The notes under the pieces are model-generated. The model was given only the letters and a program-made list of their open reading frames with translations, was not told the DNA's origin and ran no database searches. The position numbers were made by a program, and so were the translations under genes. A stretch of 47,538 nucleotides of DNA from contig JABANN010000247.1 of assembly GCA_013115125.1 (NCBI GenBank), positions 1 through 47,538 on the forward strand, in the 5' to 3' direction. Position 1 is the first letter of the stretch. Each line of letters begins with the position of its first letter. Shown here in pieces: positions 3,133 through 40,862 of this stretch. Source of the DNA: Perkinsus olseni (taxonomy: Eukaryota).

Positions 3133-3190
3133 GGCCATCCCCCAAATATAGCACTAGGCTAGTGGTCTGAGGCGTCCAGATCGGCCGCAG

Positions 3191-3432
3191 GTGCTGCTAC
3201 TCATTAGCCCAGCGCTTCTCTTGCAAGTGCTGCTACTTTATTGTTCGCCCAGCGCTTCTCTTGCAAGTGCTGCTACTTTATTGTTCGCCCAGCGCTTCTC
3301 GTGCAAGTGCCGCTACTTCATTGTTCGCCCAGCGCTTCTCGTGCAAGTGCCGCTACTTCATTGTTCGCCCAGCGCTTCTCGTGCAAGTGCCGCTACTTCA
3401 TTGTTCGCCCAGCGCTTCTCGTGCGAGTGCTG
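3191..3432. repeat. 40-bp minisatellite, 5 full copies plus partial copies
   Basis: The unit agcgcttctcgtgcaagtgccgctacttcattgttcgccc starts at 3211, 3251, 3291, 3331, 3371 and 3411 (partial). There are no spacers. Confidence 0.95.
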
Positions 3433-8733: not shown

Positions 8734-11700
8734 ATGAGCACTGATGGTCCGGGTTCGTCATCATCATCGGCCGTGCGATTGTTCGGATTGGTGCAAGGGA
8801 GTCGAGTGGGAGATCCAATAACGGCCATGTGCAGTCCACAGGTGGTGATGGGAGGTCAATCCGTGAAGTTCATGCTTGAAAGATTCTTATCGTCGATCAT
8901 ACAATTTGTACTTCGGCTAGACGGTGGAGAGACCGGCAACTCTTCGCGGGAAATTTTCCGGATGGAAGATATCTTTGTATACGAAAGAATTATGAACAGA
9001 AAACCCGTGCCGAGATTCGTTGTTTTCACATCTTTGTGCCACAACTCGTACTCGGCCGAGAATATCTCATCCGCCTGAGGTCGTGGGTTCGATCCTCGGT
9101 AACTTCATCTCTCAGGCCTCTGTTTTCTACGTCGGATACAAGAGCGGCCTTCTTGAACGGTGAGGCGTTCGGAAAGTCGATTTTTCATTTCCCATTCGGC
9201 AAGGTACTTTGTATCGTCATCTCCGAGTTCCGGTGAAATCGTGGCGATAATTACCGCCAAAATCAATATCCCCGGGAAACGACCGATCGATAATATATGG
9301 GCCTGTGAAACGAAAAGTAGTAAAAGAATGCCGTAAGTGGCTAGGCTATGGGACAACTTGCTAGCTACTCGAACCAGTTAGAGAATCTTTGAATTTCTTG
9401 GAAGCGCACAGACGAGGATATGATCTCGCGGTTCTGCAGCCGCTTTTGGAAATTGATTTGAACTATAGGCCTCCGCATCTCCCTGATGATGATGTGAACT
9501 CGGTGGCGCAATCAGAAATGCGTTCGTTGTATGAATTCACGCTCGAAGTTGGATTTTGAAAAATGCTAGACTGTTAGGAGATCGAACCCATCATGATCAT
9601 ATTCAGCGAATCGCTTGTACCTGATAATGCTGCGCGTTCATGCTGGACACGGTGAAGCGTTGCATTTGTATTTTTTACGTGTATTTTTACCAGTGAGATA
9701 TCCTTCGGCCGTTTCATTACTAGCGCTTTCGCGATACCACAAATCGGCTAACTCGTATTGTTACGCCATGCGATGCAGGTACGGCTGGCTCGGGAGGGCA
9801 TATCTTTTCCCTGTGCAACGGCAATCTTTATTTGCTACCTTCCACCTTGGATACCTCTGGGAGTATCATATGTCGATCAGTGAAGTGTGCGGCGCCTCAG
9901 CAGGGCCGTGGTGATGAGGACGGGCTGCCCGATATCGTTGTATGCACTACTAAGGGGAGAGTGTTGATGTAGTAATTTGGGATCGCCGGCAGGTCGAGAG
10001 ACAGAGTAGTTTTTGATTCTTTTATATTAGAGCAAATGAGAATTTTCCGGCAAGAATAATTTCCTCGGTGGGGTTTGGGATGGTGAAAGGGTATTCTTTG
10101 CTGTGCGGTTGCAAATACTCGTATGCGGCTTCGTCTGAAATTTTTCGGATTTTTTTTCGGAAAAAGCGATTATCACGAGACATGACATGATCAGTCATGC
10201 CAAAGAACGTCTGTCTTATTTAGCAAATAGGTCCAGTCTTTTGGTTTTTTTTTCAACGCTGGGGCGAATGATAATTCTCCCATCGCAGAATTTTGAATTG
10301 TTTGAGATATTCTTGGCTGTGCGCTGGCAGATACTCCTATGCGGAATCATCGGGTGGGTATAGGAATGCTGCCTCTGGTGGTGGTACTAGTATGATGTCG
10401 GAGATTTGTGGTATGAATGAGGCACCAGATGGAGTTGTATGGTGGCAAGGATGGATAATACTGGCCGGGGGTGATTTTAGGGAAGGCTAATCGTAGCAAA
10501 AATCGGCGATTGAATTTTCTCGCCCTCGCGCAGCTGTGAATAGTCGTAGTACACGGAGTGTTGCACTTGCATGTTGTGGAATCTGAAAGATATAACGAAG
10601 TTGATGAGTTTGTTAAGTTGTCTGGTGATGCTCTTCGCGGTGTCGGCGGTTCCCGTCTTCTTCTGCATTCTTATTAGAGCGATTCGTATCTTATCTGTTA
10701 TACACATTTCAGCGATTGTCGCCTTTCTTGCATACTCAATAATTTGTCGTCAGGCCGTTCGGGACGAGGGGGTTCGTCCTATCTTGCTGCGTCGAGTGTG
10801 GATGGCTCGGTAAGGGAGCTTTGCCCCATTGATGGGCCCGCCAGTTTAACCCTTATCCCGGAAGCTAATGAGGTACTTCTGAAACGTATCTTTTGTGCCC
10901 GTGGTTGTCATGAGTGTAATAAGAAGTATCTTCAGGTATTGTTGACTGGCCAGGAAGGCCTGGGTATTTTCATATCTTTACCAGAACCGCAGCGGCAAAG
11001 CGCGGGTAGTGTAAATCTCGCTCGCCCAGTATTTTTACGTGAAACGGTCAGAAGATACTATTTAGGTGAAGTGCCTCATCCAGCAGCGCGTAATAATATT
11101 CAGTACTCCGAGGGAGTGGAACTATGCCTGTTGGAAAGGTGGTATGTGACGGAGCGTAAAACTGCATTGGGATGGCAATTCTTGGACGTGCGCGATTTGG
11201 TGCATCCATCTTTTCTTAAAAGATTTTCGTTCGCATATTGGTTTCAATTTCATCCTTGAATGCTTTGAGAAGTGCAGTAAAACGACATATGTGGGATTCG
11301 AACCTGCGTCATTATCAGGTTTATCATCAGTGCCTCGCCAATGGACGGTACGGTTGATATATATTCTATTTGGGACCAGAAGTTGGTACAATCATTGACG
11401 TTACCCGAGCCAGTGATGGCATTGGGAGCATCTCCTACTACTATCGAGGAGGCTGCTTTAGAGGATATGGACACTGGGCGGGTAGTTAGGGATTGGAAGA
11501 TTGGAAATTGATAGATTCTTGGAGTGGTGGTAGTGGATGGGTGTGAGGTCCAAGTGGTTTGATGCTGTGGTTTTGGTAGTGGATTCAATGCCAATGTTGG
11601 TATGTCTGTATAATGACTGTCGTCTGATAAAAAAATCTGCATCGCGGAGCTTTTGAGTAGTCTCCTAGTCGCCATCCATACCGCATTACGACCCGAACGC

Positions 11701-14700
11701 ATCACCTGCGTACTATTACCTAACCAGGTAATAGTTTCCAATGACGATTGGTAGGAGATGTATTTTTCATATTGAGAAACCCCATACAGAATAGACACGC
11801 CGCTGTAGGGTTGGTCTATTAGCAAATCTCTCCGACTTGCGTGTTATGTTGGATGCTTTGCTGTTGCCCTTTCAGAAGCATGTTAGTTTATGCTGCCTTG
11901 GGACGGCGTCCGGATCGGTGTATGGTTTGGTACCAATACCCTTCCATGTGCAGTTGAAAAGATTAATAGTGGGGATGAAGATTGAGCCGGCCTTTGATCT
12001 ACTGAATGCGATGTATCCTATAGGGGTGAGACGGGTGCGAGGATCGATCCGGGGTTGTTTGGATGAAGAGATGCAGTTATGACGTGCTCCGCTGCAGGGA
12101 GGTGCTATTGCTGGTGAAGCTCGAGCGAAGGCTATGGATTTGCTGCATAGAGATGCAGGATGGCAGTTATTCTCCAACTTGCAATTCTCTCAGGTGAGGG
12201 TTATTCGACCTTACTGATGGGCATCTCAAACCTTCTCTTAATTTTCGGTCACACTGGCTGTTCTTAAGGTCGCATTCTGGTGAATCCTGTCATAGCGGAT
12301 GCCCCCTCGCACTGCCGTATGAGCTTGTACACTCTCCATCGTTATCTTTCTGACTGTGTGGTGTGTTTCGACGGTCTGTCGATTGTGAGTGAGTTTTGCC
12401 TACTCCGTTTCATCGAGGTGTTGTGATGGATCGCCAACCCGAGTGGAATGGACTCGGAACCTTAGTTTACTTATGAAATTGAATAGTCAAGTGGAGTTAG
12501 TTCACAGTGAGCTAGTTCTGCACTAGTTCACTGAACTAAGAGAACTTAGAAACTGGTTCCACTTATGCTTTCTCTTCACTTATTACTAAAACTCAGTTTT
12601 TCTGTGACACGAGCAGTTTCGTTGGCCATACTTGAGTTACTGTGCTGCTCAGGCGTTGCAGCACTTGTCGTCACTTCGAGATTCTGAGCTTGACTGGTCG
12701 AAGATTCTCCATTTCTGGATATTCCTCCTTCCGGAAGAGTGGGTATCCGCTGTGGAGGAAGCTGCTCTAGATGAGAGTAGTGTCTTTGAGCCCGTCGAAC
12801 TATCGAGGTAGTATCTTGAGGTTAAGCTGGTAAGATACAAAACAGGCCAGGTCGTGTACCATCGGGGAGTACATCTCTGAGAGGAAGTCGGATCTAACCA
12901 CGAAAGGGACGCCAGTAGAAGCCGCTCTCGAGGAGCTCTCTAGTCTAGCAGGTACGACGTCTCCCTTTTCAAAACGAAATACCGTCATTTCAGATAGGGC
13001 TATGGCGACCTTTCTAGCGTCCAATCGAGATCGAGTCAATTCTGCGAAGATACAGAGGGCGGTGGACTTGGTATTGCTAGTGTTACTGGTGGCTACGGGT
13101 AGGATGAAACCGGTGAGAGAATCCGGGAAGGCGCCATTGGGAACAGTCGTACGGGGCTCGTGTTTGATTTCTTAGTCGGCATGTGAGATTCAGTATGGTT
13201 CTACTCGCAAGCTTCCTTTCCCTCTCTAGCAGATAGTCAAACTTGGGATATTGATTTCCCTCGTCTCTCAATTTTTTGGTGGATCTCAGAATCGATGCTT
13301 TGACGGAAGCATATTTTCTCTCGTAGGTGATCCGAGATGGCGGATGTGGTTGAACCCCAAGGGACCTCAGGGAGCTGATGAGACGCTGAAGCTGCCGATT
13401 AACATCACGCCTGAGGAGTTCAGTGCGGCGGTGAGGAGGTTGCATCAACCACCAGCTGAGGGACGAGAAGCTGCGGCCTGGCTGATGGCGGCAATGGCGG
13501 GTAGTAAGCTGGATTTTATTAATCTCGCTCGCCCCGTCGATCGATCGATAGGGTCAGTGGGGTATGGGTATCGACCGGATATTGGGAATCCTAGGTTGAT
13601 GTGAAAACTCGTAAAAATGCGGGATTGAGATCAGCGATGAAGTGAATGGCCGTCGGTTGTGTCGTCTTTGCATGAGCACGGATGATGATATTTTTTTCAG
13701 GAGAAGAGGAATCCTCGCGGGTGCGCGCTTTATCTGCCCTCGATGAATGCCTACCTCACAGCGCTGAGAGGCTACTTCAGAGCCTGGCCGAGGCGAGACG
13801 ATCGGACCCCGAGCGATGGACTGTGGAGAAGGAGAGGCGTTTTTTTAAGAGCTTGGGAAGGTAGTGAGGTTTCATTCAAAAGGTCTCTGGTTCGATTCTG
13901 GGCTCAGACGTTTTAGCGATATTTTATGTTACTCTCATGCATGGTGAGTTCCTATATGGGTTGTCTCAGATGCCTTGATACGCTTGGATCGGATACGAGA
14001 CGGTTCGATGCTGCTGTGGAAGCTTGGATCGATTTAGTATCACCACTTCCGGCTGAGAAGGTTATCAAGGACTTGGAACCATCGCCTTTGGTAATGCAGG
14101 GAGGGCGTCTCACGATCACTATGGGTAGAGGTTACATCGTAGGGATTTGGACCTAGCAGTGTTAGCGTTGTGTGCAAGAGTTGGAGGATCGTGATCTAAA
14201 GAAGGCGAGGGCCTCATACGGGCCACGCTGTAGTCGACGACTACGATTTTCGAGTTTTCCGCTCTGTTACGCCTGCATGTATATGTACTACATGTTTCTT
14301 CCTATGCAGTCGTCACAGAGTGAAAATCCGCTGTACAATTTTAAAACATCGGGGCTCGTAATTCTCTTGCTAGTTTGATGATGATCTTGTGGAGCTGAGG
14401 ACAGTTGAGGTGTTTTGATGTTTCGAGGCGGATCGGATATCTTCAGGTGTTGGAAGCGTATCTCAGTAAGAAAATTGAGAAGGAGTCTCAGTGCAGCGAG
14501 GAAGAACGGATAGAGCTCAGGACTCAGTTGGCGATACTGTATATGAAGGTAGCAGGGATGGAACCGGGGACCTTCGGGTTACGATTCGTGCCTTAGACTC
14601 CGCAGCTGAGAGGGAAGTTATTACCGTTGTTAAAGAGTGACGAGAAGATCGATGCTGAGAAAGTGATGGACGAGGCGGTGAATTTGGAGCCGGTTGAAAG

Positions 14701-16999
14701 GATGGTAGCTTGTAGTGGTAGACAGTCTGTGTGACTAAACGCTATCATTGCAGGCTCTCTTGGGTCGGATGGGTCGCCACAGGGATGCCCTGTTAGAGTG
14801 TTTGGATAGGGGAGAGGAGTATTGCGGTGATGATAAGGTACTACTTCCGAGGCAGGGTGGTCCAGCATCATAACGCCTCTCTGCTGGGGGATTAATATAT
14901 CACGCGGAACGTGTTCGGGTTTTTGGATGATGTGATTATTCGGGTGAAACTTGTGAAAATGATGGGCCAAGAAGTGAAGTCGGATGCAATGGCAGTTGAA
15001 CAGGCCCTGATGCAAGGTTCGGCCCAGCAGACAGGCTGTAGTTTTCTTTTGTAAGGCTAGCGGGTCGGTCGACGCAGGCCACTACATCAGCTCGAGAGAG
15101 GCGGTTCTGTACTGTGTGATGACTCCCTCGCACCTTACCAGAGCTATTGTGCGCGACTATGCCTTGGGCTTCCGCGGTACACACCCTTACAGAGACAGCT
15201 TCAAGCTTGGCTCTTGCCGAGTACCCACTCAAGCTAGTCTCCCTGGCTCGTTCTCTGAACGATTCCGCGGAAGTGGAGTTTGATCAGAAGTTCAGATTGT
15301 CACCTAGTACCAGAGCTTGTCAGATGTCATCGTCTCACGGCCTCTCATACTCTGAAAAACTTTTCACATTTCTTCGAAGACGGCCTAGCAGCTAGACCCT
15401 AGCTGTTGGCCCTGATGATGTGGAGTGATTGGACGCTTGGTAGACTTGTTTCATCGCGACCGCCCGCGAGGTACCGGGACCGCCATCTTCGCTTCTTCAC
15501 GGATGAACCTTGGCATGTGTCTGAGTATGCCTGTGCAATGGCACAGTCTGAACCACGCTAGGCTGGGCTGCGTCGTTGGCGAGGTTGAATTTCGATGCAC
15601 GATAGAATATGTGGCAGTCGTCGACGTCGAACGGCGAAAGGATCTATGGAATCCATATGAAATGAGGAGGGAGAGCTGGGAAATGTGATTATGGACCAGT
15701 ACCCTGGCGATAAGATCGTCTCATACAGTGTTTGAGCTGATCTTCCCCAAGAGCATAGAGCTACCACTCTGCTGAACGCTCCGTTGAAGGACTATTTCTG
15801 TCATGACGATGAGCAGATGAATGCTAGAGAGCCTTCGTTTCGAGACCAGGATGGTTAGTTGATGGACTGTTTCCTGTGACTGGAATCTATGAAGGATGTC
15901 GTGAAATCAGGCTCTCGTGCCATACTCACAGACGTTCATCGCCCTATGATGAGGAGATATCACCCTGGCCCGATTGTAGAGGCCCATCATGTTAACTAAG
16001 ATTTGAGTTACTACCACGTAGCTGGCATGTGTCATATAATCTGCTTCGCAAGGATCTAGGGAATGTGTGGTACGGCTCCCATTTAGGGAGGGCTTCCTGC
16101 GAGGAACGCTAATATTGTATAATTTATCGTGATCGTTTGGTTTGATATCAAGATTCCCATTGTCCTTCTCAGGGCTTGCTGTTGCTACTGGTATCTCTGT
16201 TATTGGAGTTATCTCGAACATCGGAGGCGCTAGCAGTGCTCAATCGTCATTACCTACAGCTTGACCCGTCTAGAGTGTTGGATCTGCTTCCAGATGATAT
16301 GCCCGTGGATGTTGCCGCAATAAGGTAATGGGGCCCATTGCGGGGAGGATCCTAGTGAGGAAAAGAAGCTTTGAGGTTGGATACTCATTCTAGATGCTAA
16401 GCTTGGAAAGTCTTGTTGTTCGCTGAATTGCAGCTTAGAGTTTTCTACCAAATTCTCCTAGGGAGACTCATTGGTGTTTCTATTGGACAGATATCTCCGA
16501 TCTGCGTGTGTCTCAACACCGGTCACCGCAGAGGATACAGTAATGGCTGCCGAGAAGATGATGGGCTCGGTGTTCTTGGACGAATATTCAGAATGGCAGA
16601 AGGAGAGGTCGAGGTACTACTGAGCAGACTTACCTGGTTTGAGCTGGACCAAATACTGGGTGAATTTGCAAAGCAAGAGTCCAGCGGAGCGTAATCTTGC
16701 CGGGCCAGCATAGCGGAGAATGGGTTACCTGTTGAAATTCGCGAGCCGCCAAGATCTCGATTCTGTTGCGGAGAGATATCGCTGTTTTGAATATGGTATT
16801 TTACAGATATGTGGTGATGTCGGAAGAGAAGGCTTGCCCGGTATGTAATAGGAGGTTCGTGGCGAGTGACGGAGATGTATCTTCGAAGCCTTTCGTGGTG
16901 TATCCGAATAATGTCTGTGTCCACATACAGTGTGCTGACCCTAGTCTGGGCGTTTGTCCGGTCACTGGAGTGAAATTCAGTCAATCGACGTACAAGTGA
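8734..16999 (+). CDS. Vps39/Vam6/TGFBRAP1-like HOPS/CORVET subunit (CNH domain, helical solenoid, C-terminal Cys/His knuckle), many exons
   Basis: Exons: MSTDG...ITAMCSPQ; ASVFYVGYKSGLLER; VLLTGQEGLGIFI; TVDIYSIWDQKLVQSL; LLPFQKH/LKRLI..IEPAFDL; AGWQLFSNLQFSQ/ALQHL; YLQVLEAYL..LRTQLAILY; terminal CPVCNRRF...FVVYPNNVCVHIQC. Confidence 0.85.
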
Positions 17000-17044
17000 C
17001 TGTTTCTAGGCGGTGAGACGGCAGAGTTGATAGTGGTTAAATTG

Positions 17045-17256
17045 GGGAATTTCGTGGCGCGCGGGAAGTTTTCATGTCATGAATGATGCCAAGTTGTTGT
17101 AGGGCTCCGCATGAGTATGCTTTTGAGGAGCTGGTATAGGGTTATGGTTGAGTGGAGAATTTTGTGGCGCGCGGGAGGTTTTTGTGTTATGGGATGACAG
17201 TTTGGAACAGCTTAGTGTCGGCCTTTTCCACATGCTTCTGAGGAGCTGGTACAGGG
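17045..17256. repeat. Degenerate tandem duplication of a ~110-bp unit in intergenic DNA
   Basis: gaattt(c/t)gtggcgcgcggga at ~17047 and ~17157, and atgctt(t/c)tgaggagctggta(t/c)aggg at ~17117 and ~17232. Confidence 0.75.
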
Positions 17257-17959
17257 CGTCGAGTCGAAGTTGTGTTGTGAGCAAACGGTGGCATTCGCAT
17301 GATCATCATCACGCTGGCTCGGAGTGGACGGGAGCCGAGCTTACCGAGGAGTTGAGGGCTGATAGACAGGCGGTAGTGGAGAGGACTAAACGGTGATAAG
17401 GGGGGCATTGCGTGGCGCTGGGGGTTGTTTAACGGCTACCATCGAGTGTCTTTGGGGGTTCTGTTTTAATGAGTCTTCTGCACTTGGCAGGGCGTAGTTG
17501 TTCTCCTGGAGTGATAGTGCGTTTCATATCCCGCGTGGGAGAGCACCCCAGACAGCGTTCGTGGCCTGTTCCGCTGAATGGAGTGTTTGCCGCAGATATG
17601 AAGAAAGTGAAAGCTTCTTGCTGTTGGCAGGGTTCGTAAGGTTATGTCTCCCGAAGAGACGAAGGCGTTGGTGATGCCATCGAGGCTTCCGGAAGACTTC
17701 ATAGAAGAGACCTTGATCCCCCACATGGAAAACTGTATCCGATTTAATATCAAAGTAAAAGAACTGCAAAGACACGTTCGATAATACGTTTAAAAGATTC
17801 TCGAAAATTTTCGGTTTTTGCGTGTGCGCTCGCGAGCGTGCGATTCACTACTTTCAGTTTTTGAAGTATACTCAAAAAGTGCACTTCTGTTCAGCCGACC
17901 CGGTTCGAACCCTGGGGACGTTGGATCGCGTGCGAAGGGCTGTATGAAGGATGATGGAA

Positions 17960-20130
17960 TAGCGTTCTGTCCGCTGGAAAGCGAACCACGGCTTTTCGAG
18001 CAATCTCAATATGGAAAATTTTCGTGGGCGTCGTTTGTTGTGGAGTTTCATGTCGTCTCTTAGACCTACACCCCAGCAGAGTTGACGCAGCTGACACGAG
18101 GCTACGCCCTCTACACGTACAGAAGGGACACCAGTGGTAACGGACCCTTGATGGAGTATCTCGCGGAAATGATCAAGTCGAGGATGGTGGCCTTTACGGC
18201 AATTGAGATTGTACTAGTGGGTGTGTTTTCGGCTGCTGGATGGAGGTGAAGGCTGCAGTTTGATGGCTCAGTAGAGGCCGCCGGCCCCGGGCCGGTGTCA
18301 GAATTGGGGAGAGAGCTACTGTGTTAGCGTATGGGAAGCTTGAAGGGAGTGATGCCCAGGATCGAAAGATCTGCCTTGAGTGTGACCAAACTGTCATGCA
18401 AATGACCTTTACAACCGAAGACTGGGTGATGAAACAACTCTGAAACTGTGTTGACCGATTTCTGAAATCATTATCACTACGTCTGCGGAAGGTGGTCGAG
18501 TAGCTCGCCAATTTGAGAAAGTTATCGCGAAGTGCTTTGCGTAACGGTTTGGTTCACGCTGTAGTCGGGATTTTCGGAAAGAAAGTCGTACCGCAATTCT
18601 CCCACATCAGGCGGACCGTACTGGCGTCGTGGTCTAACTCAGGTTGATGTGCTGCCGGCTTGCCAGACTCTGTTTCCGGATGACACTGAGTTGTTTGATA
18701 TGCTAACTGAGAGGATAAAAGTAAGGTTGGATTGGACGAGCAGGAAGTGGCGGATTTGTAGTATGTGAATTAGGAAACTATAAACGATTACAGCGCGCTG
18801 AATTTGATTGGGTTGGTGAGGACCTTCGCGCGCCGCGAAATTGAGAAGAAGGAGACGAACCAGGGGTATCCAGTCCGGGAGATATTGATACCGAGATTGA
18901 AGGAAGCACTGGAGAGGTGAGAAGCGATCTTGGGAATTTCGTGGCGCGTGGGAAAAATCGGCTATTGTGTTGTGGTGGGATCTCGCGGAACAGACGAGGT
19001 GTTCTCTAGGATGGCTTCTGTGATACCGAGTTTAACGCGATTTTCGCTTCCCTCGTCCGTTTGTGTCTGGCAATCTCCCACTCTAGCTCTGTGAACAAAA
19101 CTGTATTGGACTGACGAGCGTCGTTCATCCATTAACAGATGAAGCACAACCTTTCATCAGTGGAATAGTCGAACTCACGGGCAGACGGGTGGTTGATGAT
19201 GCTTGCAGATATGATACGGCAGAGGTGTGCGATATTATCGTAGCGATTGCCGACTCGGCAGCGACGGACAAGACTATCGGTATGGACTTGCCGATCATGC
19301 AGAGTGTCTTGCCTGAGCTGGAGCACAGGCTGGACGACTTAGGAGAGACCATTCCGTTGGTTAGCCACATATCGATCGCCTGGGCGCTGGCGAGATTGGG
19401 AATTTATCATGAGGAGTATCTTGATCGATTGGCTAAGATACTCCATGAGAAGGAGCATCTTCGGAATGATATTACGCCGAGGTATCTTGTGAGGTTGCTG
19501 TGGATATACAGCAAGTGTGACGCGCTGGAGAAAATAGTGCAAGATGTGGCACCGGTTTTGGAGGGAAGCGTCGGGTATATGGGCCCGGCTCAGTTTGCTA
19601 GGTTGGCGCAGTGTAGTGAACAGATGGCGAAAGTTAAGGATATTATTGATGTCCAGAGCATAGTAAATCGATTGGGTGATCGATTATGCAGCGAGCTTGT
19701 TGTTGGTATTGAGGATAATGTTACTAATGTCAGCAAGATGAGCACGGCTGATGCATGCTATATTTTACTGGGGCTGATAGAATCCGGGACGATTGAGAAG
19801 AACGTGGATCGACCTGAGGATGCGGATGGAAACTTTGTGGCGTGGATGAGAGATGGTTCGCGGTTGGGTCGCCTACTGGCGTACATGCACAAATTTCAGG
19901 ATGAGTTCGAGGCGAGTGAGATCCAGAAAATTATCAAGGTGCTGCATGTTGCACGAAATGGGGAGTACCGAGGCTACCTGGACTTATTGCCGGCCTCCTG
20001 GGAGTCGCAGAAAAAAGACATGATTCACAGAATCGCGAAAAAACGAGAAGTCGAGGAGAAATTTATGTTGGAAGAGGCGAAGAAGGAGAGGAGAGAAAAA
20101 GGGTTTTTGAAACGAGTTTTTGGACTGTGA
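17960..20130 (+). CDS. Alpha-helical repeat protein, FASTK/HPR(RAP-associated)-like, possibly an organellar RNA-binding protein; 5' start uncertain
   Basis: Exons TYTPAELTQLTRGYAL..MVAFTAIEI; VDVLPACQTLFPDDTELFDMLTERIK; DYSALNLIGLVRTFARR; and a long last exon with SIAWALARLGIYHEEYLDRLA and ITPRYLVRLLWIYSK repeats. The family assignment rests on motif resemblance only. Confidence 0.6.
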
Positions 20131-20496
20131 TGGTGGTTGGATGAGTAATTTGTCACGTTTCTGATATGGCACTTGAGCGGCATTCAAGCCTTTGCGTTGT
20201 AGTGTGGCTCGAAAATTGGGAAGGTTTGATGAGGTTGTCTTTTTCTCTCAAGAAGAGAGTGATCGACTGGTGTCTCGTCGGTGAAATCATCTGAAAGCAT
20301 AAATATATTTTTTTCGTGGACCAGAAGCAAAAAATTATTTTCCATCTTACAGGAAACCCTGGTCGCGACGAGCCCACCGGATTAGTCTGGAGTATTGAAT
20401 TGGAACTATCATTTTACCCGCGCTCTGAGCCCACGGTCGTGGGGGACCTGCATAGTTCTGGGCTGTCAGGGTTTCAGCTTCGCCTTCTTCTCCACC

Positions 20497-21842
20497 ATGG
20501 GTAAGAAGAATCGTAGTAAGAAGGCGTCCAAGGCAGGAGCTTCAGCGAAGCCTGATCTCGATGTTGGACAGCTCGCCGATGTAAGTAGAGGAATGGGATT
20601 TGTGATTGGAATGGTATGATGTTACTGGCTGGAGGGTGTCGTTCGCGTGAGGGTTGCTGGTGATTATACGAACGATCGTACCAGATTCAATCGCGAGTGA
20701 TCGGGAGCGTGGGGCAACTAGTGGAGTATTTCGGTTCGATCCCTGCACCCGACGTTTCTCAAAGCTTTGCCGAGAATGCCTGTGATCCGTGTCAGGTCCT
20801 CGCCACCTCTGGCGAGGCTGTAACTTCTACTGGCTCCTCGGCTAATGTTGTCGACTACGGTTACGATGGCGCTCGGTTGAATGTCCAACTCATGCAGGGG
20901 TAAGTGGATCAGGCCCGATCGATGGCACCTCTTCTCTCGAGCGGTCGGGCTAGAAATTGACAGCGAAGTCCCTCCGTAGGAGAGGGATACTGCCCTTGGT
21001 AGCATCCAGTGAAATAATCGGCCAATGAGCGTGTGGTATCAACCACAGAATCATTAATAATCGAAACGCTGTGCTCGACGGTTTTCATTTCTTGCAGACT
21101 CGCTGTTCGAGGGTTGGGTAGTTGACATGAGTCACCTAGTTGTTGATGGTGTGGTATCTTTAGGTCAACACGGCGAGTTCTGGCTGGCTTGGGAGTCACG
21201 GCGTCACGAGATCCGGTACTGTTGCGTCAGGCGATGGACTTCATGAAAAGGTAGTTGCCGGGGTTCGAACCGGGGACCTTCGGCAAGCCTATCCAAGCAG
21301 AATGGAATTGCTTTAGGGAGCCCCACTTTGCAGCTGCGGAAAAGCTTGTCGAGACGGACCGAGGCAGGACCATGGGCAAATACTCCCAGGCTATATTACA
21401 GTAAGGACAACATGACCCACGATTGCGTCGACGCCCTACGAGGGAGCCTTCTGGGCATTCACTTCCCAATGTCTTCCTAGTGTCACTTTCCAATGTTTTT
21501 CGGCTCACGCAGAGGACCTGGGTGTCAGGAGTTGCTCAAGTTGTGGTACTTTGCTGCTTCTTCAGAGCCTTCGAGGACGACCTCAAGGGTTTCGTCACGT
21601 CGCTTCAGAACGCGGCCATTGAGCGGTCCGAGTCGGCAAGGAAGCTGTCAGTGTTGGCAGCATCGAGGAAGGGTGTGGCCGGAGGGAAGGCGAGGCAGTT
21701 GATGAAGGCAACCAAGTCCACTGCGGCCGCGTTGTTGATGGCTAAGAAGGGCAAACCTGTTGTTATCAACAAGGGCACTGCCAGAGGTGGGGGAGCAAGG
21801 GGACTGGTGTCAGAGACTTCGGTCGTCAAAGGAGTATCTTAG
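20497..21842 (+). CDS. Hypothetical multi-exon protein with basic N- and C-termini
   Basis: MGKKNRSKKASK... followed by frame-consistent GT-AG-bounded exons (IQSRVIGSVGQLVEYF..; STRRVLAGLGV..DFMKR; EPHFAAAEKL..; AFEDDLKGFV...VKGVS*). Confidence 0.65.
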
Positions 21843-22322
21843 GTCGAAGCGTGCTCTGTCCAGATTTGTCAGCTGGTTCGGTAGGTCCGATGGCTGCAAC
21901 GAAGGGTTCGACTATCCGGCGAAGCATTCAGAAAAGTCATTAGTTGACCGCCACTTGTTGGGGGTAATCCACCTAGTCGAGAGGCCCCACACTACGTACC
22001 AGCACTGTTTCCAGCTGTCTCCGGGTTGGTTGTGTAAATTATTGAATCGTTCCGGAGGAGGATTCCCCCATACTTGTGCAGCGGAAGGAGCCCGATATGA
22101 ACTGGATGGAAGTTACATCCAATTTCTATCGGGCCCCGTCGTGGGTCGCTTTTGTGCTCTGCTGAGTCTAGGCAGTATTCGCAGGTTGTTCAGGGATAAT
22201 TTTTTTGCTTCCGGCCAGGTGTGATCATCCGATCAGTAGTTCTGCTTCCGGCTGTAGTCCAGCCGACCACAGGTCACATTGACCGTTGTGGTCACCGACG
22301 GATAGTCCGCTTTTTGCCAACC

Positions 22323-23047: not shown

Positions 23048-23189
23048 CCAAGACCAGCCTAATTTGTGTCCATACATCTTCGTTGATCGAACGCTTATGT
23101 GCGGGGGATCTTGAGATGTCCGATCTGATCGCATCTTTCCTATGAGAGTCCCGTCTGTGTTAGCCATTCCGGGGACTTGTCTTTTCTGA

Positions 23190-23585
23190 ATGATGAACTT
23201 CCTCCCGACTTGGGTGGTGGTCATTCAGGTTGCGATTATCGCAGAGGCTCAGCACTTTGCCATATTCGTCCACACGACGTCGTACTACAGCATCACTTAC
23301 GAGGTGAATAAAAACTATGAGGTCACGTTCGGCGTCCGTGTCACTGTTGAGCCCACCCAGTGGTTTCCTGATGTCAAGTCTAGCGCTTTCCATTACGGTC
23401 CATACCCTTTGAAGAGGCTCACGGAAAGTTCCTTCACCGTAGATTTTGAGGGACATAAACACAGTCTTCGTGATTGGTATATTTCTCTGGAGAAAGCTTC
23501 TCTGGACAGATCGGCCGCAATGATGTATCACAGTAGGCAATCATTGAAAAGGCGGTTCACTACAGTTCTGGCGCATCGAGATTGA
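23190..23585 (+). pseudogene. Truncated copy 1 of the tandem secreted-protein family
   Basis: Closely matches 23903-24709 up to ...RDWYISLEKA (~23497), then runs into unrelated sequence and stops. The second domain is missing. Confidence 0.75.
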
Positions 23586-23902
23586 GTCAGCGATCGAGAC
23601 CATGGCGTGATGCTCCAACGTTGGTGACAGCTGAAAGCGCTGAGGGTTGTAGATAGGGGGAGTTCAAACTCCGAGTTTGCCCAAACCTTATTAACCAGCT
23701 CAAGGACCAAACTGTATACGGATACCAAGTACTAGGACGGTCGGAAGCGTCCCGTGGTGACGTGACACGCAAGACACCCAGGTTAGTATGTGTTCCTACT
23801 TTTTCGTTGATCGAACGCTCATGGGCGGGGATGTCGGACCTAATCGTATCTTCTCAATGAGAGGCGCATCTATATAGCTATCCCGGGACCTGTCTCTTGA
23901 AA

Positions 23903-24709
23903 ATGATGAACTTCCTCCCGAGTTGGTTGATGGTCGTTCAAGTTGCGATTATCGCAGAGGCTCAGCACTTTGGCATGTTCGTCCACAAGTCGGCCTACTA
24001 CAGTATTACTTATGAGGTGAATAAGAACTATGAGGTTACATTCGGCGTCAATGTTACTGTTGAACCCCCCGAGTGGTTACCTGATGCCAAATCGAGTTCT
24101 TTCCAGTACGGTGCATATCCTCTCAAGAGGCTCTCGTCCAACGCGTTCACCGTAGACTTCGAGGGGCATAAACACAGCCTTCGCGATTGGTATATGTCCA
24201 TGGAGAAAGCTATGGTGGCCGGTGGTGTGACTGTGTCCGATGATGAATACCCTCCTATTGGTATGACTGATGGCGACTTGACTGTTCTACAGTACGAAGG
24301 TCCTGACACTCTTACCGTAAACTTCCAAGACGACGCAATTTCGTTCAGTCGGGTGTCCCGTAGTTTAGCGGCGGGCACATTTGTCTACAAGGATTGCATG
24401 AAACCGAGTCTTAGGCTCAGATATAAGGTTTCCAGTGACAGCTCGGTCCATATCAAAGCTGCCTGCGATGAGAAACGTATCAGCCCAACTACCTTTAAGC
24501 TAGTCCGTCGCGACGGTAGTGCTAACTACCAGCACTATGACGTTGAGCCGGCTGGAGAAGGAACCTTAGATGAGTTCCGTCAGCAGATGAGGACTACCAT
24601 TAGATTGAGATATGTTTCTGCCAATGATTTTTCCCGTGTCACCTTCGCAGCTGATGGCGTCATCTTGGTGAGGCTCGGAGATGTCGCCGTGGCTTTAATG
24701 ACGAAATGA
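23903..24709 (+). CDS. Secreted two-domain protein, lineage-specific family, copy 2
   Basis: Intronless ORF with a signal peptide (MMNFLPSWLMVVQVAIIAEA). It is paralogous to 25977-26783 over its full length. Confidence 0.85.
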   Translation: MMNFLPSWLMVVQVAIIAEAQHFGMFVHKSAYYSITYEVNKNYEVTFGVNVTVEPPEWLPDAKSSSFQYGAYPLKRLSSNAFTVDFEGHKHSLRDWYMSMEKAMVAGGVTVSDDEYPPIGMTDGDLTVLQYEGPDTLTVNFQDDAISFSRVSRSLAAGTFVYKDCMKPSLRLRYKVSSDSSVHIKAACDEKRISPTTFKLVRRDGSANYQHYDVEPAGEGTLDEFRQQMRTTIRLRYVSANDFSRVTFAADGVILVRLGDVAVALMTK

Positions 24710-25049: not shown

Positions 25050-25976
25050 TTTGCTCGCCTAATACGAGAGCTGAGAAATTTTATTGTTTATCCCACCCGC
25101 TGAATCGTGTAGATCCTTTTCCTTATCCGTCCATGCATTGCTCGGAATTCTATCCTCTAACTTTATCTCGAGAGTACACTCTACGTCACGGCCATTGCGT
25201 TTCCCAGCAATTTGCAAGTTAATTCCCGCGGTGCGCATGTTGGAATTCGGCGGGATCCTACAGTGTTTGGTTCCTATCACTTCGCAGCAGTCGAGGGAAG
25301 GCAGCATCAGAGGTGATGGCTGTTTGAACCATCTCCCCGATAAACTATGAAAGTTGTCATCTCGTGTAGATTGTCATCTCCGTCTGTGTTTTCAGAGATT
25401 TGCGGGGCTACTCGCAAGTCACGTCATAGTTGTACGACGCCAATCAGGCCGCCATAAGGGGAGTCCGCATGGTCTGACAGAAGCATGGGTTATGGAATGA
25501 CCCTTCGGATTTGATGGATTAGGGTCAGCGTTTATTGCCCTATTACTACACTACCTATCAATCTCATCTCGTCAATAGTCTAATGGTTAATTACTCAAGC
25601 CAAACAGGAGACAATTCCAGGATGTATGGCACACGCGCCTGCGTCAGGACCACACGCTCACTGATCCGTTCGTTGATAACGCGACTTGAAGTCACTTCCG
25701 TTCGAACTCGGAAATTTCGAGGTCTCGCCGGCAATCTGAAAATCGCGCAACCACAGGGCAAGATTACCTTTGTAATTTTTTACTCAAACCTACATATCAA
25801 TGGTGACTACGGACTGATGATCATCACAGCAGGCGGAGGCTCCACGAGCAGCGTGTCCCGCGGTGACGTGACACCGGGGCGATGCACTGTTCATGCGTTC
25901 ATCGTATCTTGGTTCATGCCGCGCTTCTGTTTAAGCCTTATCCTCGTTAGCTTTCCACGAGACTCGCCTCTCCTGA

Positions 25977-27509: not shown

Positions 27510-30271
27510 ATGGTTGGTGGTAAGGATGGTAGACGACGGTCAGGCCGAGACGAGAAGGCCCCACTTGTTTCGGCAGAGGCGGCGGGTAAGGCGGGTGAAG
27601 GGTCGATGTCGTGTTCATCATTCTTTCGGTTGGTGATAGGGTCGGTGGACCAGCGCGTTTCTATCGTACCAATACTATTCATAGCAATAGTACATCCTCG
27701 CCATCGCTACGTTCACCCCTCTCGGTAGCCTAAGTCCTACGAACGAGAGCGTCGCATATTTAAGTTGAGAGGCCAACTTCTATCCTTATTATCTCGTACC
27801 ACCCTAGTACACGCCTTCTCCTACGCGGATCTCAGAACTTCGAGCGTCGACTTCACCGTTGTGTTGTCACTGTTTGTCTACCTCTCGTCGAAGTCATTAG
27901 TGCTGTGCAGCATGTCAGTCGCTTCTTCGAAATTTCCACCGCCTTCCAATCGTCTGCTCGTGGCATCAACGCTGTCGGTGTCCAGTAAAACAATCTTGCT
28001 GGGCTTTCCTCGAGGGCGTGACCTTGAGTGATGACCAGCTGAATTCAATGGCGAAATCTGCATCAACCGTTCTTCAGAGCCTCAGCGTGGCAGAGCTCCC
28101 GAAAGACCACCCGAGGGCCCTCACGCGTCGAGGAGACGACTCAGCCAATTCAGTCCGAAAATCGGGTAACGTCACGGCGACTGAAACCGCTGCGTTCCAT
28201 CTCAATCGGCAACGTGAAGAGGGGTTCAGGTACGAGGCCGATGGCTTAGCGGCGATTCACGACTCGAGTCATCAAACTGGTGATTGTGAGAGTAGCCCTT
28301 GGCGGGATTTTCCTGGAGCTGTTCATGGATCCATCATTAGGCTCAGCATTGTCATCTGCCCAAGTGGGTGGAGTCTCGAGGTACGCAGCATTCAGTCAGA
28401 CGGGAAGGGTTCCTGTGAATCCCCGGAAGGTGAACCAAGATTCCTTCTGGACCATTGAGGTAGCCTCGGCTGCTGGTAGGCCTGCTTTAGGGTTGCCCCT
28501 GTGACGTCAGGACCGAGCTCAGAAGTACTCGTTCTTCGGGGTGGCCGACGGTCATGGTGTAGTTGGCCATAAAGTCAGCGGATTGATAAGTCGTCAGCTC
28601 CCGCAGTCCCTCTTGAGAGAGCTGGCCCGCTCGGAGTACGTCCCGGGTTGGATCCTCGGCTGCGACGTTCCGGATTGAGTGCAAGACCCTGCTACCCACG
28701 AACGTCTGATATATGTTATACCTCAGTGCGAGCACCAGGAAGGCACTGGACAGAGCGTTCAAGAAGACCAACCAGGCTGTGTTGAGCGCTGATATGGTGA
28801 GAACTGCCGCTTTGGCTCTGTTCATAGGGGTTTGATCGCCCAACTCCGAGGGGTTTAAGCAACTACATGCGGATAGCAACTACAGCAGGAATCTGATCTT
28901 GCTTTTCCGGTGATGAATTTCATCATGAAAACGAACTTAATTCCGCAAGGCTGGGTTGCGTCGAACGTAATTATATATATATATATATATAAATTCAGTG
29001 GTGATAGCTGTACCGCATAACAATCCACGTAGGCTCTGCTACTCAATCTTAGTTTTCTTATGTTAGGACGTTACACTGAGTGGGAGCTCCTGCGTCTCAG
29101 TGCTCATCAAGGACTCGAAAATGTGACGCGGGTCTCATGGCTCTGCTCGGTTCCTCCTGCCACTTCCTAGAGCTGCAGAATCGGCAGATACTGTGCCAAC
29201 ACTGGGGACTCGAGGGCAGTCCTCGGGCGACGGTCCAATGGTGGTCAGTGGACTGCTCTCCCGCTGTCGAACGATCACAAGCCTGATAGCCCTGGTGATC
29301 TGCATTCCTCGGAGCGTTGAGTGAGGTCATTCGCGTAGATGAGCTGAAACGGATCACAAAGATGGGCGGTCGCGTCGAACCATTCCGTACAGGAATTTTC
29401 AGTATACCGATGGGGCCGAGCCGAGTGTGGTTGAAAAAACAGGTCGGCCGAGTGAAACATAGCACGTGGACAGTCTGGGCCGGACTTGTGGTGGTGTTCA
29501 GGACTTGCCGGGCCTCGCGATGTCAAGAGCTTTTGGAGACACGATTGCAGCAAGCATCGGGGTGACTGCAGAGCCTGAGATATCTAAGCATACTATATCG
29601 AATGAGGATAAATTGGTTGTAGGCGAATTGCTATAACGACCGCATATCTTGTTTGTGATATACTCCCGGCGGGGGTCGAACCCACGACCTACGGCTCATA
29701 AGACCGTCGCTCTAACCACTGAGCTACAGGAGCTGTGGTCATGTCGGTGTTTCGGACGCCCCATGGCCGGTTCCGTGCTGGTAGCACGGTGCCACTCTGA
29801 GACGCCACTCAAGTGTACTTCGAGATGCGGTAACGACTTCCCTGTCCGCAGGTTCTAGCCTCGGATGGCGTTTGGGATTTCATGCCGAATGAGGAGGTCA
29901 TCCAGATGGTGGCTAAGTACGATCCTTCATCCATCACCCCACGTTTGGCCGCAACCCGTCGTGGCCGCGACGGACGCTTCGGGAAGTTATCATTTTCAGG
30001 ATGAGTTGGATCTTGGTGTGCGCAAAATTTTCCCGAAACTTGCCGTTTGTGCAATTGGATATTTCTTCGACTCTGCTACTCGGAGAAGCAGGTACTACAA
30101 CCAAGAGAATTGCCGGAAGGCCGCCAGAGCCGTGGTGAAGGAGGCATCAGAACGATGGCAAAGCAATGTGAGGTCAGATAGGAGTAGGGCGGTGTAACGT
30201 ATCTTGGTCAGGAAGAAGTCGTCGATGACATTACTTGCGTTGTGGTGTTTCTTGGTGATAAGCAACGTTGA
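27510..30271 (+). CDS. Protein phosphatase 2C (PPM family), multi-exon; start is 27510 or 27912
   Basis: All canonical PP2C motifs occur in order across exons: SQTGRVPVNPRKVNQDSF; FFGVADGHG; SGSSCVSVLI; YCANTGDSRAVL; LSNDHKP; GPSRVW; GLAMSRAFGD; VTAEPEI; VLASDGVWDFM; VDDITCVVVFL. Stop TGA at 30269-30271. Confidence 0.93.
28972..28990. repeat. (TA)n microsatellite in a PP2C intron
   Basis: Uninterrupted TA run visible directly. Confidence 0.9.
29661..29733 (-). tRNA. tRNA-Ile (anticodon TAT), intronless, nested antisense in a PP2C intron
   Basis: The reverse complement GCTCCTG TA GCTC AGTGGTTA GAGC G ACGGT CTTATGA GCCGT AGGTC GTGGG TTCGACC CCCGC CGGGAGT A folds into a full 73-nt cloverleaf with A and B boxes. 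Confidence 0.93.

Positions 30272-33860: not shown

Positions 33861-40862
<7,002 letters not shown>

What the first reader, a model, noticed from the sequence alone, without database searches (positions are those of the whole stretch)
14549..21316. Two short introns in different genes share a 17-nt antisense-tRNA core (introner-like)
Intron 14549-14596 (48 nt, Vps39-like gene) and intron 21251-21316 (66 nt, hypothetical gene) both start GTAG. Both carry the exact 17-mer gaaccggggaccttcgg (14561-14577 and 21267-21283) a similar distance from the donor. The reverse complements read tcgtaacccgaaggtccccggttccatcc and ccgaaggtccccggttcgaaccccggc, which look like the variable loop and T arm of a tRNA, with anticodon-arm sequence in the first. 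The tRNA-like sequence makes up much of each intron. Inference: a tRNA-derived intron-generating or intron-homing element.
Basis: partly seen in the sequence, partly recalled or inferred. Interest (0 to 1): 0.7.

Follow-up and report, generated by a model that had tools for sequence, protein, structure and literature searches.

The report
Decayed tRNA-gene relics inside Perkinsus introns
Two short introns of the mollusc parasite Perkinsus really do share a backwards-facing piece of a tRNA gene, but it looks like one of many decayed tRNA-gene leftovers scattered through this genome's introns rather than a dedicated intron-making element.

Summary
The exact 17-mer occurs only at 14561-14577 and 21267-21283. 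Both hosts are real GT-AG introns, spliced in RNA contigs. Both match a tRNA profile in antisense and in register (E 0.009 and 1.7e-4, above all 60 shuffles). The window is Perkinsus olseni-like.

The "introner" reading is not supported by what I could test.
- GTAG is the ordinary donor here (13 of 29 mapped introns).
- Similarity between the two introns is confined to the most conserved tRNA segment: anticodon-stem end, variable loop, T stem.
- No third copy exists in the window at up to 3 mismatches.
- The same profile finds three more partial tRNA-like stretches in other introns, of all sizes, in both orientations, with different anticodons.
- Three T-loop-like sites carry TTTT exactly where a Pol III terminator follows a tRNA gene.
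- An intact tRNA-Ile(TAT) gene sits antisense inside a PP2C intron.

Best reading: 5'-truncated relics of dispersed tRNA genes riding as passengers in introns (0.6). P. marinus is already known to hold hundreds of tRNA gene copies. Intron birth from antisense tRNA fragments stays open (about 0.2), because no Perkinsus genome was available for a census or an ortholog comparison.

The parts
8734..16622 (+). Vps39/TRAP1-like (CNH-domain) gene, 23 exons and 22 introns by the P0001 model. It hosts intron 1 and three other tRNA-like relics.
   Evidence: P0001 maps at about 100% identity. The names come from the sources. Pfam gives only a weak TPR_Vps41 match below its cut-off.
14549..14596 (+). Intron 1: 48 nt, phase 0, GTAG...TTAG
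   Evidence: contig-length arithmetic, table 8
14551..14584 (-). Antisense tRNA-like relic in intron 1, tRNA profile positions 34-67. In register the anticodon reads CGT (Thr-like). The T loop is degraded (TTCCATC).
   Evidence: 11.7 bits, E 0.009
14561..14577 (+). Shared exact 17-mer, copy 1
20497..21943 (+). Small, highly covered hypothetical gene: 6 exons, a protein of about 210 aa beginning MGKKNRSKK... It hosts intron 2.
21251..21316 (+). Intron 2: 66 nt, phase 2, GTAG...TTAG
   Evidence: joint in 4 of 4 runs
21256..21284 (-). Antisense tRNA-like relic in intron 2, tRNA profile positions 40-68: anticodon-stem 3' side, variable loop, T arm and start of the acceptor strand.
   Evidence: 17.3 bits, E 1.7e-4
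21267..21283 (+). Shared exact 17-mer, copy 2
21246..21249 (-). TTTT on the relic's strand, exactly 12 nt after the T-loop 10-mer (tRNA position 74, the usual Pol III terminator place). It lies in the upstream exon as AAAA of ...AAAAG|GT.
13870..13914 (+). Sense tRNA-like relic (profile positions 34-69, anticodon reads TTC) followed by TTTT at 13911-13914, inside the 109-nt intron 13861-13969.
   Evidence: E 0.011
9074..9099 (+). Sense tRNA-like relic (profile positions 41-66) near the 3' end of the 274-nt intron 8842-9115. It is 79% complementary over 34 nt to the strand opposite the intact tRNA-Ile gene.
   Evidence: E 0.018
11279..11308 (-). Antisense T-arm relic (profile positions 49-64) with TTTT at position 74 (11279-11282), near the 3' end of the 180-nt intron 11139-11318.
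   Evidence: E 0.067
17899..17914 (.). Weak T-arm-like site (GGTTCGAACC is palindromic, so its orientation is open) inside the intron between exons 17632-17790 and 18064-18219 of the neighbouring gene.
   Evidence: E 0.6, not significant on its own
20733..20758 (+). Weak T-loop-like site with TTTC at position 74, inside the 215-nt intron 20581-20795.
   Evidence: E 3.9, not significant on its own
29661..29733 (-). Intact tRNA-Ile(TAT) gene, antisense inside the 233-nt intron 29619-29851 of a PP2C gene. Its 3' end lies 42 nt from the donor.
   Evidence: 67.6 bits. PP2C profile positions 167-204 end at 29618 and 206-242 start at 29852. The intron is inferred from this; no RNA was laid here.

Best explanation
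Each intron carries, in antisense, a decayed and 5'-truncated relic of a tRNA gene: anticodon loop or stem, variable loop, T arm and part of the acceptor strand. The shared 17-mer is the most conserved stretch of that part: the last bases of the anticodon stem, the variable loop AGGTC, the T stem CCCGG and the first T-loop bases.

The relics belong to a wider population of tRNA-gene leftovers in this Perkinsus olseni-like genome. They come from several isotypes, lie in both orientations, and survive in introns because introns are where insertions in this gene-dense DNA are tolerated.

I read them as passengers. The introns are removed by the ordinary spliceosome at ordinary GT-AG signals, and the tRNA-like part does nothing for splicing.

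Shown:
- tRNA-likeness in register.
- Several isotypes and both orientations.
- Terminator-like T runs at the canonical position.
- An intact tRNA gene nested in an intron.
- Splicing of both introns.

Inferred:
- The copies arose by a dispersal process that keeps the 3' end and loses the 5' end. This could be retroposition of Pol III primary transcripts or capture of tRNA-gene DNA at breaks.
- The two short introns shrank around the relic.
For: 1. An independent tRNA profile finds the true tRNA gene plus 5 partial hits at E<=0.1 in the real window. Sixty dinucleotide shuffles gave a mean of 0.07 such hits. Four partial hits (17.3, 11.7, 11.4 and 10.8 bits) exceed the best shuffle score of 9.6. 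The two introns are the top two partial hits.

2. All 5 partial hits lie in mapped introns: 2 sense and 3 antisense, in introns of 48, 66, 109, 180 and 274 nt, at varied distances from the splice sites.

3. In register the anticodons differ: CGT in intron 1 and TTC at 13870. The relic at 9074 resembles the local tRNA-Ile and reads CAT where that gene has TAT (my own alignment of the two arms printed). So there are several source tRNAs, not one element.

4. None of the 5 partial hits reaches the D arm (model starts 34, 34, 40, 41, 49). All reach positions 64-69.

5. The T-loop/B-box pattern GGTTCGANNCC occurs 7 times. Shuffles gave a mean of 0.48. Three thousand composition-matched permuted patterns gave a mean of 0.37 and a maximum of 4.

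6. TTTT stands exactly 12 nt after the 10-mer at 3 of 14 oriented sites, and TTTC at a fourth. The background frequency of TTTT is 0.0045 per position.

7. An intact tRNA-Ile gene lies antisense in a PP2C intron.

8. The same 17-mer occurs in real tRNAs of five isotypes: 37 of 117 ARAGORN tRNAs from the 234 fetched prokaryote and metagenome loci (Pro 21, Met 9, His 3, Arg 2, Val 2). It sits at positions 41-57. Two different tRNAs can therefore share it.

9. Kojima and Jurka 2013 (PMC3706591, sections 10 and 13 read) counted more than 500 copies of five tRNA gene types in P. marinus.

10. Similarity between the two introns outside the core is at background level, and GTAG is the commonest donor (13 of 29).
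Against: - Rfam's tRNA covariance model reports nothing at E<=10 on either intron with 30-nt flanks. ARAGORN at default settings finds only the true gene. The cloverleaf is gone, and the case rests on sequence similarity of about 30 nt.
- The 17 nt are identical while the flanks differ, which is uneven for neutral decay from a single source.
- Two of the 5 significant relics sit in short introns. Short introns hold only 592 of 6281 mapped intron bases. My rough Poisson estimate for this is p about 0.1.
- In both short introns the relic runs right up to the donor. In intron 2 its terminator-like T run lies in the exon. A simple passenger model does not predict this.
- Four of the 5 relics are in one gene.
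- The weaker sites at 6450, 31656 and 34054 were not placed as exon, intron or intergenic.
- No genome-wide census was possible.
Confidence: 0.6

Rival explanations
1. Intron birth (introner-like). An antisense fragment of a tRNA gene or transcript was inserted into coding sequence and was spliced out from the start. The reverse complement of the acceptor strand supplied a GTAG donor and a downstream AG supplied the acceptor. The two introns would be young gains from one tRNA-derived source.
For: - The relic fills almost all of intron 1: the nhmmer envelope is 14544-14595 for an intron at 14549-14596.
- It fills the first 40 or so nt of intron 2, starting at the donor.
- Both relics are antisense, with the core 12 and 16 nt from the donor.
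- A third short intron (12026-12097) has a weaker antisense T-arm-like GGATCGATCCGGGG 15 nt from its donor. It scores 11 against both introns.
- Two of the 5 significant relics lie in short introns, which hold only 9% of mapped intron bases.
Against: - GTAG(T) is simply the local donor consensus (13 of 29 GTAG, 9 of 29 GTAGT).
- There is no similarity beyond the tRNA core, no third copy in 47.5 kb and no clear target-site duplication (by eye).
- Other relics sit mid-intron or near acceptors, in sense orientation and with other anticodons.
- In intron 2 the terminator-like run is exonic, so insertion and intron do not coincide.
- All 9 P. olseni models that cover the site use the intron 1 donor. 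A related fragment, P0008, starts in the conserved 3' end of intron 2. This hints that both introns are shared among relatives, though this is weak evidence.
Confidence: 0.2
2. Exonization at intron 2 only. The relic lay inside an older 417-nt intron (20900-21316). Its antisense acceptor strand offered a GTAGT donor, which turned the 87 nt upstream (21164-21250) into a new cassette exon. Intron 2 is what remains downstream.
For: - The relic with its T run straddles the exon-intron border.
- The exon is 87 nt, or 29 codons, so skipping it keeps the frame.
- A 93%-identical P. olseni gene model (P0002) joins ...NVQLMQG|EPHF..., skipping exactly this exon.
Against: - All 4 runs laid show contigs that include the exon.
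- P0002 may simply be a prediction error.
- No DNA of that haplotype or of other species was available.
- The full-library search with P0002 found no orthologue outside its own cluster that could show whether the 29 residues are old.
Confidence: 0.15
3. Functional B-box elements. The T-loop-like GGTTCGANNCC sites are kept because they bind TFIIIC, either as extra-TFIIIC sites or as promoters of small Pol III transcripts nested in introns.
For: - The motif is strongly over-represented: 7 against about 0.4-0.5 expected.
- T runs stand at the terminator position in 3-4 sites.
Against: - In intron 1 the T loop itself is degraded, while the part upstream of it is the exact one.
- No A-box or D-arm signal accompanies any relic.
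- The motif count is partly ascertainment, because I searched for intact motifs.
- No expression or binding data are available.
Confidence: 0.05
4. Chance or compositional convergence: the 17-mer match and the tRNA resemblance are coincidental.
For: - My estimate: a single exact 17-mer repeat somewhere in 47.5 kb is not very rare a priori, of the order of 0.1 expected for any 17-mer.
- Rfam gives no tRNA hit.
Against: - Shuffle controls.
- The I1-I2 pair is an outlier among 78 intron pairs.
- Both introns align to the tRNA profile in the same register and on the same strand.
Confidence: 0.03

Closest known systems
tRNA pseudogenes and tRNA-gene relics, and tRNA genes nested in introns of protein-coding genes (general knowledge, recalled, e.g. 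nematodes and mammals)
   Same: - Partial, non-folding copies of tRNA genes lie in non-coding transcribed DNA.
- An intact tRNA gene sits antisense inside an intron in the same window.
- Both orientations and several isotypes occur.
   Different: - The density is high here: 5 significant relics plus 1 intact gene in 47.5 kb.
- Only 3' parts are seen.
- In two cases the relic makes up most of a 48-66-nt intron.
Amplified tRNA genes and tRNA-targeting Dada transposons of Perkinsus marinus (Kojima and Jurka 2013, PMC3706591; sections 10 and 13 read)
   Same: - Same genus.
- It documents hundreds of copies of tRNA genes (349 Leu-CTT, 116 Gly-GGA, 46 Ile-ATT, 23 Tyr, 9 Ile-ATA).
- This gives a ready source of tRNA-derived DNA. 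tRNA-Ile-ATA is the type present intact in this window.
   Different: - That paper counts near-intact genes (>95% identity and length) and transposons inserted into them.
- The parts I read do not describe truncated relics in spliceosomal introns.
- No Dada element was looked for or seen at the two introns.
Introners and introner-like elements (Micromonas, Aureococcus, fungi, dinoflagellates, Amoebophrya; passages read in PMC11282704 and PMC7789003)
   Same: Short repeated sequence shared by introns of unrelated genes, in an alveolate related to lineages where introners are known.
   Different: - Introner copies resemble each other along the whole intron. They come in families of many copies and often have terminal inverted repeats and target-site duplications that supply a splice site.
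- Here similarity is limited to about 20-30 nt of tRNA-like core.
- There are 2 copies in the window, no inverted terminal repeats and unremarkable folding (z -1.3 and -1.2).
tRNA-derived SINEs
   Same: tRNA-related sequence dispersed in the genome, with a Pol III-type B box and T runs.
   Different: - A SINE head carries both the A and B boxes at its 5' end, followed by a body and a tail.
- Here only the 3' part of the tRNA is present, there is no A box, body or tail, and several isotypes are involved.
Antisense Alu exonization; spliceosomal introns made from captured filler DNA such as organelle DNA (both recalled, not read here)
   Same: A dispersed Pol III-derived repeat in antisense can offer splice sites, and captured foreign DNA can become an intron. 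These are the models behind the two rival readings.
   Different: No case with a tRNA-gene fragment is known to me, and nothing here shows that the relic created the splice site.

Membership tests
Introner / introner-like element family | Many copies in unrelated genes | tested here: inconclusive
   There are only 2 copies of the 17-mer in 47.5 kb at up to 3 mismatches. No genome is held. Scans of metagenome and prokaryote collections returned only unrelated DNA, with no match beyond 28 nt.
Introner / introner-like element family | Similarity along the whole intron, including its ends | tested here: not met
   The local score of 19 comes from the core alone. Nt 3-16 rank 345 of 406 pairs. The last 9 nt match at 7 of 9, equalled or beaten by 25 of 406 pairs. 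Lengths are 48 against 66 nt.
Introner / introner-like element family | Terminal inverted repeats, target-site duplication, or structure that brings the ends together | tested here: not met
   Folding z-scores are -1.30 and -1.24, like the control introns. Only AG or AGG is repeated at the borders.
Introner / introner-like element family | Presence or absence between strains or species | not testable with these tools
   No DNA of other Perkinsus genomes is available. The gene models give only indirect hints.
tRNA gene (functional) | Cloverleaf recognised by a covariance model or ARAGORN | tested here: not met
   Rfam gives no tRNA hit at E<=10 on either intron. ARAGORN at default settings finds only tRNA-Ile at 29661-29733.
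tRNA-gene relic / pseudogene | Significant sequence similarity to tRNAs in the correct register | tested here: met
   nhmmer with a profile of 69 tRNAs that lack the 17-mer gives E 1.7e-4 (positions 40-68) and E 0.009 (positions 34-67). The best of 60 shuffles was 9.6 bits and the reversed window's best was 4.1.
tRNA-gene relic / pseudogene | Gene-type 3' end: T run right after the discriminator base | tested here: met
   TTTT stands at position 74 for intron 2's relic and for the relics at 13889 and 11304, and TTTC at 20733. It is absent in intron 1.
tRNA-derived SINE | tRNA-related head with A and B boxes, then a body and a tail | tested here: not met
   No partial hit reaches the D arm or A box (model starts 34-49). 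No shared body or tail exists among the relics.

The most novel reading that the evidence does not exclude
In Perkinsus, antisense fragments of tRNA genes or pre-tRNA copies are a source of new short spliceosomal introns or of new splice donors. The reverse complement of a tRNA 3' part happens to fit the local GTAGT donor, and it is long enough to make a minimal 45-70-nt intron. Part of the parasite's short introns would then descend from its hugely amplified tRNA genes.
Probability: 0.18. Interest if true: 0.7.

Novelty: new member of a known kind. Interest (0 to 1): 0.35.

Why it matters
If these are passengers, the finding is ordinary genome litter. It still records something useful. In a Perkinsus olseni-like genome, tRNA-gene relics are dense in introns, and an intact tRNA gene is nested in one. 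This extends the known tRNA-gene amplification of the genus, and gene annotators should expect tRNA-like hits inside introns.

If the bolder reading holds, it would be a concrete, datable source of intron or splice-site gain. That source would differ from the transposon-type introners known in dinoflagellates and algae. It could be tested by comparing the several Perkinsus assemblies that exist.

Tried and rejected
- Whole genome: none is held.
- Earlier findings of this scan: nothing on this genome or on look-alike stretches. The word search gave only unrelated tRNA-intron cases.
- Read laying: it printed 15 of 36 joints and the intron 1 joint was not among them. I used contig-length arithmetic instead.
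- Rfam at permissive thresholds. On the whole window it found only the true tRNA and sub-threshold noise. On the two introns it found no tRNA hit, only a 15-bit Twister-P5 match that I take as chance.
- ARAGORN at lowered thresholds: 34 and then 203 calls across the window, so it is noise and was not used.
- Collection scans for the 17-mer. In 8 of the first 60 prokaryote loci the 17-mer lies inside a tRNA gene; the rest are other DNA. None matches either intron beyond 28 nt, so no further eukaryotic copy was found.
- Folding of both introns on both strands: unremarkable.
- PDB sequence search with P0001: no hit.
- Full-library search with P0002: no orthologue that could date exon 21164-21250.
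- A whole antisense tRNA spanning intron plus downstream exon. The 3' ends read CTAA(G/A)GCA in reverse complement and both downstream exons hold GCAGCTG. The profile gives no D-arm hit there and the 3'-end likeness is at background level. I rejected this as unsupported.
- A recalled resemblance of intron 1's reverse complement to eukaryotic tRNA-Thr(CGU): a lead only. No eukaryotic tRNA-Thr sequence was available to test it.
- A brute-force exon search timed out and one script failed on an option. Both were redone.
Full report
**What is there.** The 17-mer GAACCGGGGACCTTCGG occurs at 14561-14577 and 21267-21283 and nowhere else in the window. This holds at up to 2 mismatches (shuffle mean 0.02) and at up to 3 mismatches (shuffle mean 0.08).

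**Organism.** No genome is held for the window. Exon translations hit proteins that their sources name Perkinsus olseni at 93-98% identity. A Perkinsus marinus orthologue hits at 79%. The window is therefore from a P. olseni-like alveolate parasite of molluscs.

**Both hosts are real introns.**
- I mapped the 900-aa model P0001 onto the window. This gives a 23-exon gene at 8734-16622 whose exons match at about 100%.
- That model removes 14549-14596 and joins ...LYMK|TPQLRGK.... If kept, the intron would read into a stop.
- Eight of 9 P. olseni models that cover the site have this junction. The ninth, P0021, uses the same donor and an acceptor 39 nt further on.
- The joint of intron 1 was not among the 15 of 36 joints printed by read laying.
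- The RNA contig of run X10 (record 8) has exactly 849 letters between genome positions 13499 and 16805. That equals the sum of the exon pieces only if all seven introns in between are removed, the 48-nt one included.
- For intron 2, the joint 21248->21315 (GT..AG, cut +2) is present in contigs of all 4 runs laid, from 4 studies. Only X10 is on record as RNA.
- Removing intron 2 with four other introns gives one open frame for a protein of about 210 aa.

**'Both start GTAG' is not a shared mark.** Of 29 introns I could map, 13 start GTAG and 9 start GTAGT. It is the local donor consensus.

**The core is tRNA-like in antisense.**
- Rfam's tRNA model reports nothing on either intron, even at E<=10 in a search space of about 100 nt. 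ARAGORN finds only the true tRNA-Ile(TAT) at 29661-29733. No cloverleaf survives.
- I collected 117 tRNAs with ARAGORN from the 234 prokaryote and metagenome loci that the 17-mer scans had brought in. Thirty-seven of them hold the 17-mer: Pro 21, Met 9, His 3, Arg 2, Val 2.
- In these tRNAs it always runs in the sense direction, at about positions 41-57. This covers the end of the anticodon stem, the variable loop, the T stem and the first T-loop bases.
- From 69 class-I tRNAs that do NOT hold the 17-mer I built a sequence profile and ran nhmmer over the window.
- After the true gene (E 2e-13), the best hits are intron 2 on the minus strand (model 40-68, 17.3 bits, E 1.7e-4) and intron 1 on the minus strand (model 34-67, 11.7 bits, E 0.009).
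- Sixty dinucleotide shuffles gave a best score of 5.2 on average and 9.6 at most, with 0.07 hits at E<=0.1 per shuffle. The reversed window's best was 4.1.
- In register, intron 1 reads U33, anticodon CGT and A37.

**The two introns are not alone.**
- The same search gives three more partial hits at E<=0.1: 13870-13905 (+, model 34-69, anticodon TTC), 9074-9099 (+, model 41-66) and 11308-11293 (-, model 49-64).
- All three lie in introns of the Vps39-like gene, of 109, 274 and 180 nt.
- The relic at 9074 is 79% complementary over 34 nt to the strand opposite the intact tRNA-Ile gene. By my own reading of the two arms printed in that call, they share a 15-nt exact run.
- Weaker T-arm-like sites (E 0.3-4) lie in the intron 17791-18063 of the next gene and in intron 20581-20795. 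Another lies 12 nt after a GTAAGG donor in an AAA-ATPase gene. Three more, at 6450, 31656 and 34054, I did not place.
- The T-loop/B-box pattern GGTTCGANNCC occurs 7 times. Shuffles gave 0.48. Three thousand composition-matched permuted patterns gave a mean of 0.37 and a maximum of 4.
- At 3 of 14 oriented sites TTTT stands exactly 12 nt after the 10-mer. That is tRNA position 74, where Pol III terminators follow tRNA genes. A fourth site has TTTC. The background frequency of TTTT is 0.0045 per position.
- One of these T runs belongs to intron 2's relic and lies in the upstream exon, as AAAA of AAAAG|GT.
- None of the five partial hits reaches the D arm, and all reach positions 64-69. The copies therefore look 5'-truncated.

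**A living counterpart.** The intact tRNA-Ile(TAT) gene lies on the minus strand inside a 233-nt intron (29619-29851) of a plus-strand PP2C gene, 42 nt from the donor. The PP2C profile runs to position 204 in the exon ending at 29618 and resumes at position 206 in the exon starting at 29852. I laid no RNA on this part, so this intron is inferred.

**How alike are the two introns?**
- With the splice consensus trimmed, their local alignment score is 19. The other 77 pairs of 13 short introns have mean 6.8, sd 2.2 and maximum 11.
- That score comes from the core alone. Nt 3-16 rank 345 of 406 pairs. The last 9 nt agree at 7 of 9, which 25 of 406 pairs equal or beat.
- Neither intron folds unusually: z -1.30 and -1.24, like two control introns.
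- So the features that define introner families are not met: full-length similarity, terminal repeats, end-joining structure.

**Reading.**
- The simplest account is that these are relics of tRNA genes, or of their primary transcripts. They were copied from several isotypes, 5'-truncated, inserted in either orientation, and kept only where they do no harm, which here is mainly introns.
- The 17-mer is the part of a tRNA that different tRNAs most readily share. In my prokaryote sample five isotypes hold it.
- This fits Kojima and Jurka (PMC3706591, sections 10 and 13 read). They counted 349 Leu-CTT, 116 Gly-GGA, 46 Ile-ATT, 23 Tyr and 9 Ile-ATA genes in P. marinus.
- The dispersal mechanism is inferred, not shown.

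**What does not fit neatly.**
- The 17 nt are identical while the flanks differ.
- Two of five significant relics sit in short introns, which hold only 592 of 6281 mapped intron bases.
- In both short introns the relic runs to the donor. In intron 2 its T run is exonic.
- A third short intron (12026-12097) has a weaker antisense T-arm-like stretch 15 nt from its donor.
- These points keep two bolder readings alive. One is that antisense tRNA fragments gave birth to the introns. The other, for intron 2, is that the relic supplied a donor inside an older 417-nt intron and so created the 87-nt exon 21164-21250.
- A 93%-identical gene model (P0002) skips exactly that exon, although contigs of all 4 runs include it.
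- A 38-aa fragment from a relative (P0008) begins in what corresponds to the 3' end of intron 2. That acceptor region is therefore shared with a more distant relative. This says nothing about the tRNA-like part.

**Literature.**
- I searched for Perkinsus with introns and tRNA (51 papers, 20 listed). I searched introner with Perkinsus (2 papers). I searched Perkinsus, SINE and tRNA-derived, and intron gain, tRNA, antisense and introner.
- I read passages of PMC7789003 (Amoebophrya introners; Perkinsus appears only as a comparison genome in the 12 of 21 passages shown) and of PMC11282704 (a review of transposon-derived introns).
- I also read passages of PMC3101222, which reports P. marinus introns of 39-1622 bp, mostly under 100 bp.
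- In these searches I found no description of tRNA-derived introns or of tRNA relics in Perkinsus introns.
- Supplements were closed, so the genome lists of the large introner surveys were not seen.

**Verdict.** The tRNA origin of the shared core is supported. The intron-generating element is not supported, though it is not excluded without a genome. I rate this a new member of a known kind, with modest interest.

Noticed in passing
window 29619-29851 (tRNA at 29661-29733, minus strand): An intact tRNA-Ile(TAT) gene is nested antisense in an intron of a PP2C phosphatase gene. No run of four T follows it before the exon.
   Followed up: partly
window 14838-16172: A 1335-nt intron of the Vps39-like gene. 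Contigs of X1 (14809-16059) and X20 (15736-16139) lie colinear with the genome inside it. Minus-strand open frames of 110-162 aa lie there (14593-15081, 14936-15283, 15907-16239), without a Pfam match. It could be a nested gene or unspliced RNA.
   Followed up: no
window 21164-21250 and 14597-14635: Gene models of other P. olseni isolates differ here. P0002 skips the 87-nt exon before intron 2. P0021 uses an acceptor 39 nt downstream of intron 1, dropping 13 residues. These may be alternative splicing, haplotype differences or prediction errors.
   Followed up: partly
window 17045-17067, 17155-17177, 17403-17425, 18932-18954; inverted copy at 5920-5935: A repeated motif around TTTCGTGGCGCGCGGGAA, mostly in the spacer between the Vps39-like gene and the next gene. 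It recalls an E2F-type site (recalled consensus, not tested).
   Followed up: no
window 44094-44217 and 46139-46240: Two inverted-repeat arms (41 and 52 nt, 78-79% complementary) bracket about 2 kb. Possibly the ends of a DNA transposon.
   Followed up: no
window 23171-23470, 23884-24183, 25958-26257: Three copies of a 300-nt stretch at 83-86% identity, with shared upstream blocks. This looks like a small tandem gene family. Contig depth is high around 23341-24007.
   Followed up: no
window 3164-3470 and 1592-1741: Tandem repeats of period 40 and 15/30 nt inside open frames, with a weak Mucin-like Pfam hit on 2515-3132.
   Followed up: no
window 35909-35965 (minus strand): A sub-threshold match to a C/D-box snoRNA family (sn3071: 24.8 bits, gathering score 40) within the AAA-plus-bromodomain gene region.
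   Followed up: no
window 12026-12097: A 72-nt intron with GGATCGATCCGGGG 15 nt from the donor. It is a weak look-alike of the antisense T-arm core of the two introns, and the tRNA profile does not detect it.
   Followed up: partly
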